Origin: Eledone cirrhosa
Lineage: Eukaryota
Direction of reading: 5' to 3'
Assembly: GCA_964016885.1 (NCBI GenBank)
Contig: OZ024743.1
Span: 5,270,001-5,334,000 of the forward strand
Length of the DNA: 64,000 bases
Both the position numbers and the translations under genes were made by a program. This document shows, piece by piece, positions 34,980-35,556 of the stretch. The notes below the pieces were generated by a model, which was not told where the DNA came from, ran no database searches, and saw nothing but the letters and a program-made list of their open reading frames with translations. Position 1 is the stretch's first letter. The number at the start of each line of letters is the position of its first letter.

Positions 34980-35556
<577 letters not shown>

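What the first reader, a model, noticed from the sequence alone, without database searches (positions are those of the whole stretch)
35132..35139. Octamer ATGCAAAT conserved upstream of the HHR in both monomer families: possible internal snRNA-type promoter
Seen: exact ATGCAAAT at 7427-7434, 35132-35139 and (minus) 34926-34933, about 70-95 nt before the CUGA core, while neighbouring sequence has diverged. Established: this is the POU/Oct-binding distal element of snRNA promoters, and the HHR-containing newt satellite 2 is transcribed from an snRNA-type promoter with an octamer. Inference: these monomers may carry their own promoter.
Basis: partly seen in the sequence, partly recalled or inferred. 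Interest (0 to 1): 0.75.

Follow-up and report, generated by a model that had tools for sequence, protein, structure and literature searches.

The report
Ribozyme repeats carrying host U6-type promoter word
The eight-letter word sits just ahead of the self-cutting RNA motif in two families of small jumping repeats and is the same word that stands 77 bases before the host's own U6 and RNase MRP genes, so it is likely part of a built-in promoter, which reviews say such animal elements lack.

Summary
ATGCAAAT is at all three stated places, 80 (family B) and 100 nt (family A) before the CUGA core. The window count is at chance (6 against 5.1), and two of the three sites are arms of one insertion.

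Both families are young, dispersed hammerhead retrozymes. In HHR-anchored samples of the genome the octamer is the only invariant block outside the ribozyme core in families A, B and C. It also occurs in 3 of 16 other loci, against about 0.1 expected.

The host's two canonical U6 genes and its RNase MRP gene carry TATGCAAAT(G/T)AG at -77/-76 and TATA at -30. U1, U2, RNase P and 7SK do not. The retrozymes have the same 12-mer and a TATA 42-43 nt on; the host spacing is 46-48.

So the promoter idea is partly supported, but as a proximal U6/MRP-type word plus TATA, not a vertebrate-style distal Oct site.

Points against:
- the spacing is 4-5 bp short;
- nothing beyond the 12-mer and TATA resembles the host promoters;
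- the octamer is also one arm of a predicted RNA hairpin;
- I obtained no data on transcription.

Earlier notes of this scan reported the same idea from other windows of this genome.

The parts
7144..7787 (+). Family A retrozyme insertion, about 1.4 units of a 466-nt monomer, ending in (TA)n
   Evidence: Self-BLAST shows 7144-7234 equals 7610-7700. The genome holds at least 520 first-look candidates, the scored ones 94-100% identical.
7426..7437 (+). TATGCAAATTAG, with the octamer at 7427-7434, in family A. It matches the host U6/MRP -77 word.
7470..7475 (+). TATA-like TATAAC, 43 nt after the octamer start. The inferred start is near 7500-7504.
   Evidence: The start site is inferred from the host geometry (TATA at -30, octamer at -76/-77) and was not observed.
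7509..7580 (+). Type-I hammerhead of family A. The core CUGAUGA is at 7527-7533, helix III is a loopless palindrome ACUAGU, and cleavage is predicted after 7557.
   Evidence: Rfam HH9 gives 38.6 bits, below the gathering score of 52, E 1.1e-8. Helix II shows a compensatory change in a sister subfamily, GUUGU/ACAAC to GAUGU/ACAUC.
7387..7391 (+). T5 run 40 nt before the octamer. A T5-T7 run is conserved at this place in A, A2, B and B1, and could act as a terminator.
   Evidence: The role is inferred.
34549..35457 (.). Two-armed (head-to-head) family B retrozyme insertion with a monomer of about 418 nt. The left arm is on the - strand and ends at monomer position about 110. The right arm is on the + strand and ends at position 55.
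   Evidence: locus L001 covers window 33540-36862.
35131..35142 (+). TATGCAAATTGG, with the octamer at 35132-35139, in family B. This is the finding's own site.
35174..35179 (+). TATATA box 42 nt after the octamer start. The inferred start is near 35204-35209.
   Evidence: The start site is inferred.
35206..35248 (+). Family B hammerhead. Helix I is ACGUUG/CAGCGU, the core CUGACGA is at 35212-35218, helix II has a U.U pair at its base, helix III is the palindrome ACUAGU, and cleavage is predicted after 35242.
   Evidence: Read by analogy with A. There was no Rfam match at E up to 10. Sister subfamilies have CUGAUGA, and one has a C-G base pair at that position.
34926..34933 (-). Octamer of the inverted arm. 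Its TATATA is at 34886-34891 and its core CUGACGA at 34847-34853, both on the - strand.
35082..35087 (+). T6 run 45-50 nt before the family B octamer, a possible terminator of the preceding unit

Best explanation
The octamer is the first part of a 12-base word, TATGCAAAT(G/T)AG. Together with a TATA box 42-43 bases downstream, this word likely forms a promoter inside each retrozyme unit, modelled on the host's own U6 and RNase MRP gene promoters.

Shown here:
- The word and the TATA box stand in that order and at that spacing ahead of the hammerhead in families A, B and C.
- The same word stands at -77/-76, with TATA at -30, before the host's canonical U6 genes and its RNase MRP gene.

Inferred:
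- Host factors would bind this word on the DNA and start transcription about 30 nt after the TATA box. That is 3-27 nt before the ribozyme core.
- The hammerhead would then trim off the variable leader.
- RNA polymerase III is the more likely enzyme. The word occurs only in TATA-bearing U6/MRP genes, and each unit ends in a T5-T7 run.
- Because the units lie in tandem, or are copied from RNA circles, the promoter of the next unit is transcribed and carried along. An upstream-type promoter could in this way survive passage through RNA.
For: 1. Host genes. The octamer is at -76 (U6 on C5), -77 (U6 on C9) and -77 (RNase MRP), each with TATA at -30. The U6 tandem cluster on C19 has ATGCTAATTAG at -78.

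2. The retrozymes share the 12-mer: A TATGCAAATTAG, B1 the same, C TATGCAAATGAGGC. Family C shares 14 letters with the MRP promoter.

3. Octamer-to-TATA spacing is constant at 42-43 nt in A, A2, B, B1 and C. TATA-to-core distance varies from 38 to 57 nt.

4. In nine HHR-anchored representatives, the only invariant runs of 4 or more are ATGCAAAT, CTGA and GAAAC, with 29 invariant columns in all.

5. An unbiased sample of 30 loci chosen by the ribozyme pattern alone gave the exact octamer at -80 to -105 in 10 loci. Three of these were among the 16 non-C loci, against about 0.1 expected (background rate).

6. In nine old family C copies the octamer columns have 2 mismatches in 72, against 122 in 1034 elsewhere (Fisher P = 0.018).

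7. The octamer arm of the predicted hairpin never changes, while its partner arm differs between families: ATTTTCAT, ATATGCAT. This points to recognition of the sequence itself.

8. Other ribozyme repeats carry the cassette at the host spacing of 47. The pattern gives 519 genome matches against 47 in the control, and 19 of the 30 loci fetched belong to family H.

9. A T5-T7 run lies 40-52 nt before the next octamer in A, A2, B and B1.
Against: 1. No transcription start, RNA end or expression was seen.

2. The retrozyme spacing of 42-43 nt in A, B and C is 4-5 bp shorter than the host's 46-48. Such a shift can matter in snRNA-type promoters (recalled).

3. Beyond the 12-mer and the TATA box there is no similarity to the host promoters (z from -1.4 to 0.9).

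4. Family A has only TATAAC.

5. RNase P and 7SK, also TATA-bearing small-RNA genes, use a different word, AATCAGT, and lack the octamer. The octamer is therefore not the host's general signal for such genes.

6. If polymerase III stops at the T5-T7 run, the transcript holds one ribozyme and about two thirds of a unit. That cannot give the unit-length RNA that a retrozyme needs.

7. Depletion of T-runs in the body is weak (P from 0.012 to 0.22, families not independent).

8. In family B a start set by the octamer distance would fall inside helix I.

9. The invariant run is not significant within A and B alone. Representatives D, E and F were picked because they had the octamer.

10. The whole octamer is paired in a predicted, conserved RNA hairpin.
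Confidence: 0.55

Rival explanations
1. The octamer is conserved for a role in the RNA, not the DNA. It would form one arm of a hairpin in the retrozyme RNA that is needed for stability, circle formation, or recognition by the reverse transcriptase that copies the element.
For: ViennaRNA folds of circular monomers pair the whole octamer in A, A2, B, B1a and B1b. The inner stem differs between families in a compensatory way: AGU/ACU in A against GGCU/AGCC in B and B1. Retrozyme RNAs are known to be highly self-paired (PMC7229834, passages seen).
Against: Only the octamer arm is frozen; the partner arm varies and carries a mismatch in each family. A structural role does not explain identity with the host U6/MRP 12-mer, the fixed distance to a TATA box, or family H, where the hairpin uses other letters. 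The folds are predictions for single sequences. No covariation statistic was run.
Confidence: 0.2
2. The octamer is an Oct/POU-factor site that acts as an enhancer of a polymerase II snRNA-type promoter, as reported for newt satellite 2.
For: ATGCAAAT is the classical octamer (recalled). Newt satellite 2 is cited as driven by an snRNA-type polymerase II promoter (PMC2220036, passage; PMC6765202, passage). The host's U1 and U2 genes also show TATA-like boxes at -30, so a TATA box alone does not exclude polymerase II here.
Against: None of the 19 distinct U1 and U2 upstream regions has the octamer within 400 nt. In the host it is found only before U6 and MRP, at a proximal place. The U1/U2 word AATCAGT at about -57 is absent from families B and C, and A has only the similar AAATTAGT. 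The newt paper itself could not be read.
Confidence: 0.12
3. The octamer has no present function. It is kept by shared descent of related, mostly young families, and the match to the host word is a coincidence of an AT-rich motif.
For: A and B are homologous throughout and their copies are 93-100% identical. A 10-letter invariant run is common in column shuffles. The window count is at chance.
Against: The octamer is retained exactly in the older, 12%-diverged family C and in three further unrelated-looking loci. It is the only invariant block outside the ribozyme core. The match to the host covers 12-14 letters, at a place where three host genes agree.
Confidence: 0.1

Closest known systems
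Metazoan non-LTR retrozymes (Cervera and de la Pena 2020, PMC7229834, passages read; review PMC7761336, passage read; Li, Clavereau and Pollet 2026, bioRxiv 10.64898/2026.07.22.740005, passages read)
   Same: Both are non-coding units of a few hundred bases in short tandem arrays spread over the genome. Each unit has a type-I hammerhead. Copies are young and near-identical, and a link to Penelope-like elements has been proposed.
   Different: [quoted passage not shown] Here each unit has a host-like promoter word and a TATA box before the ribozyme. Units of 418-538 nt are also longer than the 170-400 nt quoted. RNA circles were not tested here.
Newt satellite 2 (Coats, Zhang and Epstein 1994; not held, known only through citations in PMC2220036 and PMC6765202)
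   Same: Both are tandem repeats with a hammerhead that is active as a dimer, and both are said to carry an internal snRNA-type promoter.
   Different: The newt case is reported as polymerase II in a vertebrate. In this genome the word is proximal, tied to a TATA box, and matches U6/MRP genes rather than U1/U2 genes.
Schistosoma SINE-like hammerhead repeats (Sm-alpha; Ferbeyre et al. 1998, as described in PMC6765202, passage read)
   Same: Both pair a promoter with a hammerhead and are apparently transcribed by polymerase III. Single cleaved copies lose the promoter, so tandem copies are needed.
   Different: The schistosome promoter type is different: as I recall it is tRNA-like and internal, which was not checked. 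Here the signals are of the upstream U6 type.
The host's own U6 and RNase MRP gene promoters (this genome)
   Same: Both have the same 12-letter word, TATGCAAAT(G/T)AG, in the same orientation, followed by a TATA box. A T-run lies further downstream.
   Different: Spacing is 42-43 nt against 46-48. Nothing else is alike. The retrozyme word is also part of a dyad/hairpin that the host promoters lack.
Promoter in the LTR of plant retrozymes (PMC9695139 and PMC12029980, abstracts seen in the listing)
   Same: Both are retrozymes that bring their own promoter.
   Different: The plant promoter lies in an LTR of a Gypsy-dependent element with a type III hammerhead. There is no relation in sequence or layout.

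Membership tests
Metazoan non-LTR retrozyme | Short non-coding unit repeated in tandem and dispersed in many copies | tested here: met
   Tandem and two-armed arrays are seen in 30 loci for B. A has a 466-nt period and B a 418-423-nt period. First-look candidates number at least 673 for B and at least 520 for A. The longest ORF in a trimer is 50-80 aa.
Metazoan non-LTR retrozyme | A type-I hammerhead in every unit | tested here: inconclusive
   A gives Rfam HH9 at 38.6 bits, below the gathering score of 52. B gives no Rfam match. The full core, helices I and II and compensatory helix II changes across subfamilies can be read. Helix III is a loopless palindrome, so activity would need a dimer. 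Cleavage was not tested.
Metazoan non-LTR retrozyme | Expressed as unit-length circular RNA | not testable with these tools
   No listed run is on record as RNA. Contigs show joints that go back 464-466 nt, which tandem DNA also gives.
U6-type (upstream, TATA-containing) small-RNA gene promoter of this host | Host-specific upstream word TATGCAAAT(G/T)AG in sense orientation | tested here: met
   The 12-mer is exact in A, B1, C and H. B has TGG instead of TAG.
U6-type (upstream, TATA-containing) small-RNA gene promoter of this host | TATA box at the host's distance from the word (46-48 nt) | tested here: not met
   A, A2, B, B1 and C have 42-43 nt, and A's box is TATAAC. Family H, and family D copies in the pattern list, have 47.
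U6-type (upstream, TATA-containing) small-RNA gene promoter of this host | Transcription starts about 30 nt after the TATA box | not testable with these tools
   No raw RNA reads were available.
U6-type (upstream, TATA-containing) small-RNA gene promoter of this host | Run of T as terminator, and none inside the transcribed part | tested here: inconclusive
   A T5-T7 run is conserved 40-52 nt before the next octamer. There are 0 internal T4+ runs in A2, B and B1, and 1 in A. Depletion against shuffles is only P = 0.012-0.22.
Vertebrate-type distal octamer (Oct-1 site about 200 nt upstream of snRNA genes) | The host's polymerase II snRNA genes carry the octamer as a distal element | tested here: not met
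   None of 12 distinct U1 and 7 distinct U2 upstream regions has ATGC(A/T)AAT within 400 nt. There is one reverse copy at -399.
Vertebrate-type distal octamer (Oct-1 site about 200 nt upstream of snRNA genes) | A separate PSE lies about 150 nt downstream of the octamer | tested here: not met
   In the retrozymes the hammerhead core begins 80-100 nt after the octamer. The U1/U2 word AATCAGT is not found there.

The most novel reading that the evidence does not exclude
Every unit of these retrozymes is a complete small-RNA gene of the host's U6/MRP type: upstream word, TATA box, start, ribozyme, body without T-runs, and T-run terminator. Tandem or circular copying lets an upstream-type promoter travel through an RNA intermediate. 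These protein-free parasites would then switch themselves on with the host's snRNA machinery instead of depending on read-through.
Probability: 0.35. Interest if true: 0.8.

Novelty: new variant of a known kind. Interest (0 to 1): 0.6.

Why it matters
How animal retrozymes get transcribed is an open point. The 2020 review read here says they seem to have no promoter and proposes read-through (PMC7761336). In the two primary papers read here, 'promoter' occurs only for T7 in one and not at all in the other.

A unit-borne copy of the host's U6/MRP promoter word would explain the very high and widespread expression reported for such elements. It would also explain why tandem units matter. It gives a simple handle, the octamer and TATA box, for switching the elements off in experiments.

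The work also yields a first description of this host's small-RNA gene promoter words, which could be useful for guide-RNA expression.

Earlier notes of this scan reached the same reading from other windows of this genome. This window therefore adds a confirmation and some limits, not a first sighting.

Tried and rejected
1. RNA evidence. No run on record as RNA was listed for family A. The four runs laid are contigs of unknown kind and show no starts or ends. Their depth cannot be read as expression.

2. Variant sites in those runs. 21 variable places in 466 nt miss the octamer and the TATA box. At that density this is expected by chance, so I draw nothing from it.

3. Window-wide enrichment of the octamer: none.

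4. Longest-invariant-run test on A, A2, B, B1a and B1b: not significant.

5. Similarity between host promoters and retrozyme cassettes beyond the 12-mer and TATA: none.

6. Rfam. No hammerhead reaches the gathering score in the window. Family B gives no hit even at E of 10.

7. The other CTGANGA...GAAA sites of the window (4495/4528, 10271, 35692 and others) are not part of families A or B. The octamer at 4376 only borders a (TA)n tract.

8. The Coats 1994 paper is not held, by DOI or by PMC id.

9. Searches for a described mollusc U6 promoter element or a cephalopod retrozyme gave nothing relevant.

10. Look-ups of earlier notes by place (near) and by sequence gave nothing.

11. T-run depletion gives only weak support for polymerase III.

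Full report
**What is in the window**

Exact ATGCAAAT occurs six times in the 64 kb, against 5.13 expected from shuffles, so there is no enrichment as such.

7427-7434 (+) lies in a 466-nt unit, family A. About 1.4 units are present at 7144-7787.

35132-35139 (+) and 34926-34933 (-) lie in the two arms of one head-to-head insertion of a unit of about 418 nt, family B, at 34549-35457. The two arms are 97.7% identical. The window therefore offers two independent cases.

The other three octamers (4376, 33786, 60495) have no hammerhead downstream.

**What the two families are**

Both are young, dispersed, non-coding tandem repeats.
- B has at least 673 first-look candidates in the 3.0-Gb genome. 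Copies are 93-100% identical to the window's unit.
- In 30 loci B forms arrays of 1-8 units. Many are two arms pointing away from each other, with outer ends at monomer position about 55 or about 111.
- A has at least 520 candidates; the scored matches are 94-100% identical.
- A and B are homologous along their whole length, with 234 identical columns of 506.

Family A has a type-I hammerhead that Rfam's HH9 model scores at 38.6 bits, below the curated 52. Family B has the same layout with CUGACGA and a U.U pair at the base of helix II, and gets no Rfam match.

In both, helix III is the loopless palindrome ACUAGU. A single copy cannot close this helix. That is the form which the papers read here describe as active in dimers (PMC6765202, passage; PMC7229834, passage).

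Ribozyme-pattern searches of the genome give:
- 4503 matches against 10 in the control;
- 14122 matches against 2;
- 1025 matches against 52.

Helix II changes between subfamilies in a compensatory way.

These are retrozymes of the animal, non-LTR kind. Cutting and RNA circles were not tested.

**Is the octamer kept more than its surroundings?**

Within A and B alone the answer is no. TATGCAAATT is the longest invariant run in a five-way alignment of whole units. A run of 10 arises in 4060 of 20000 column shuffles, and in 13788 of 20000 for A against B.

The picture changes with older families. Thirty loci were chosen only by a ribozyme pattern with helix III ACAUGU.
- 14 belong to an older family C, and 16 are other sequences.
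- The exact octamer stands 80-105 nt before the core in 10 loci. Seven of these are C copies. Two more C copies have one mismatch, and five C copies are truncated or deleted there.
- 3 of the 16 other loci have it.
- At the shuffle rate, about 0.0065 hits are expected per locus. That is about 0.1 for 16 loci.

In nine C copies the octamer columns show 2 mismatches in 72, against 122 in 1034 elsewhere (P = 0.018). Six of 118 eight-column windows do as well.

An alignment was made of nine representatives: A, B, B1, B2, two C copies, D, F and E.
- It has 29 invariant columns in all.
- The only invariant runs of four or more are ATGCAAAT, CTGA and GAAAC.
- D, E and F were picked because they have the octamer, so this alignment illustrates rather than tests.

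A further group of ribozyme loci with ACAUGU (for example L197, L200, L204, L212, L215, L216) has no octamer. The word therefore belongs to one clade of ribozyme repeats, not to all.

**The host's own genes**

*U6.* Among 48 U6 matches, the two best-scoring genes have a canonical 5' end. They carry TATGCAAATGAGG and TATGCAAATTAGA, with the octamer at -76 and -77 and TATA at -30.
- A tandem U6 cluster on contig 19 has ATGCTAATTAG at -78 and TATA at -30.
- Some units of that cluster have another sequence in place of the word.
- Fourteen further U6 hits (L074, L075 and L131-L142) have no promoter-like upstream region and look like processed copies.

*RNase MRP.* The single gene (104.8 bits) has TATGCAAATGAGGC with the octamer at -77, and TATATAAG at -30.

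*Genes without the octamer.*
- Twelve distinct U1 and seven distinct U2 upstream regions have no octamer within 400 nt, apart from one reverse copy at -399.
- U1 and U2 share AATTAAAT near -90, (A)ATCAGT near -57 and a TATA-like box at -30.
- RNase P and the 7SK candidate have the ATCAGT word and a TATA box, but no octamer.

In this host the octamer is therefore not a distal enhancer of snRNA genes. It is the start of a proximal word specific to U6 and MRP.

**The retrozyme cassette**

Counted from the octamer start, the retrozyme layout is as follows.
- A TATA box lies at +42 or +43. It reads TATATA in B, B1 and C, and TATAAC in A.
- The CUGA core lies at +80 to +100.
- The predicted cut falls after +111 to +131.
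- A T5-T7 run lies 40-52 nt before the next octamer.

The word itself reads TATGCAAATTAG in A and B1, TATGCAAATTGG in B, and TATGCAAATGAGGC in C.

The octamer-to-TATA distance is constant, while TATA-to-core varies from 38 to 57 nt. This suggests that the two motifs work together.

With the host geometry, the start would fall near 7500-7504 in A and 35204-35209 in B. That is 3-27 nt before the core, so the ribozyme would remove the leader.

A search for the word followed by TATA at the host's own spacing finds 519 places against 47 in the control. Of the 30 loci fetched:
- 19 belong to family H, an old element of about 350 nt with spacing 47, a hammerhead with palindromic helix III, and a T6-7 run about 22 nt after the cut;
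- most of the rest are B- or C-type units or other ribozyme repeats.

**Limits**

1. The spacing in A, B and C is 4-5 bp shorter than in the host (46-48).
2. Nothing beyond the 12-mer and the TATA box resembles the host promoters (z from -1.4 to 0.9).
3. The octamer is also the 5' arm of a hairpin predicted in every family.
   - Its inner stem differs in a compensatory way, so an RNA role is a serious rival.
   - Against that rival, only the octamer arm is frozen, and the partner arm drifts.
4. If polymerase III stopped at the conserved T-run, the RNA would hold one ribozyme and about two thirds of a unit. Unit-length RNA would then need read-through or another polymerase.
5. Depletion of T-runs in the body is only weak.
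6. No transcription data could be had.

**Comparison with what is known**

[quoted passage not shown] Of the two primary papers, one mentions only T7 promoters and the other none.

Precedents for a ribozyme repeat with its own promoter are:
- newt satellite 2 (polymerase II, snRNA type);
- schistosome Sm-alpha (polymerase III);
- the LTR promoter of plant retrozymes.

The first two are known to me only through citing papers. The third I saw in abstracts.

This case is a new variant of that theme: an upstream-type U6/MRP-like word plus a TATA box inside each unit of an invertebrate-style retrozyme.

Earlier notes of this scan, from other windows of the same genome, reported the same idea. They prompted my host comparison, which I then ran myself.

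**Verdict**

The promoter reading is partly supported in a corrected form, with about 0.55 confidence. It remains untested at the RNA level.

Noticed in passing
L222-L249 (19 of 30 loci), e.g. L229:1500-1830: Family H is an old (70-82% identical), dispersed element of about 350 nt. It begins about 30 nt before the octamer and has the host spacing of 47 to TATA. It carries a hammerhead with the palindromic helix III AAUCGAUU and a T6-7 run about 22 nt after the predicted cut. This looks like a compact promoter-ribozyme-terminator unit.
   Followed up: partly
window 34549 and 35457; 7319-7324 and 7393 (family A); loci: Array outer ends fall at two fixed places per family, each just after a short T-run (GTTTTTAT, TTAATTGTTT, CCGTTTAT, TATATTT), and are followed by (TA)n. 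The two arms of the window's B insertion use one place each. The relation to the T-run 'terminator' is unexplained.
   Followed up: partly
window 35692-35715 (+): CTGATGAAGAGCTAGTGTCCGAAAC lies 235 nt after the B insertion. It belongs to another repeated family with a hammerhead-like core (also in L052 and L175) that has no octamer upstream.
   Followed up: partly
window 4390-4570: A palindromic short element has CTGATGA...GAAA on both arms (4495 -, 4528 +). The same element lies directly before a promoterless U6 copy (L074) and inside a family C copy (L047).
   Followed up: no
G000 contig 19, 31.78-31.84 Mb (L063-L090): A tandem cluster of at least 36 U6 genes has a period of about 1.8 kb. 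The genes have a variant 5' end and ATGCTAAT instead of ATGCAAAT. In some units the upstream word is replaced by an unrelated, tRNA-like looking sequence.
   Followed up: partly
L091-L130, L143, L251: The host small-RNA genes fall into classes by upstream word and distance to TATA. (A)AATCAGT lies about 30 nt before TATA in U1/U2 and about 35 nt before it in RNase P and 7SK. AAAT(G/T)AG within the octamer word lies 42-43 nt before it in U6/MRP.
   Followed up: partly
run X1 laid on window 7235-7700: Summed contig depth of 2-6 x 10^5 was seen in a run of only 1.38 billion letters of unknown kind. This is far more than in another run of the same organism label (X5, about 200-400). It would fit an RNA library with very high retrozyme expression, but the kind of run is not on record.
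   Followed up: no
window 28086-28157 (-); 30955-31154: A tRNA gene (35.7 bits) lies at the first place, and a 200-N gap at the second.
   Followed up: no
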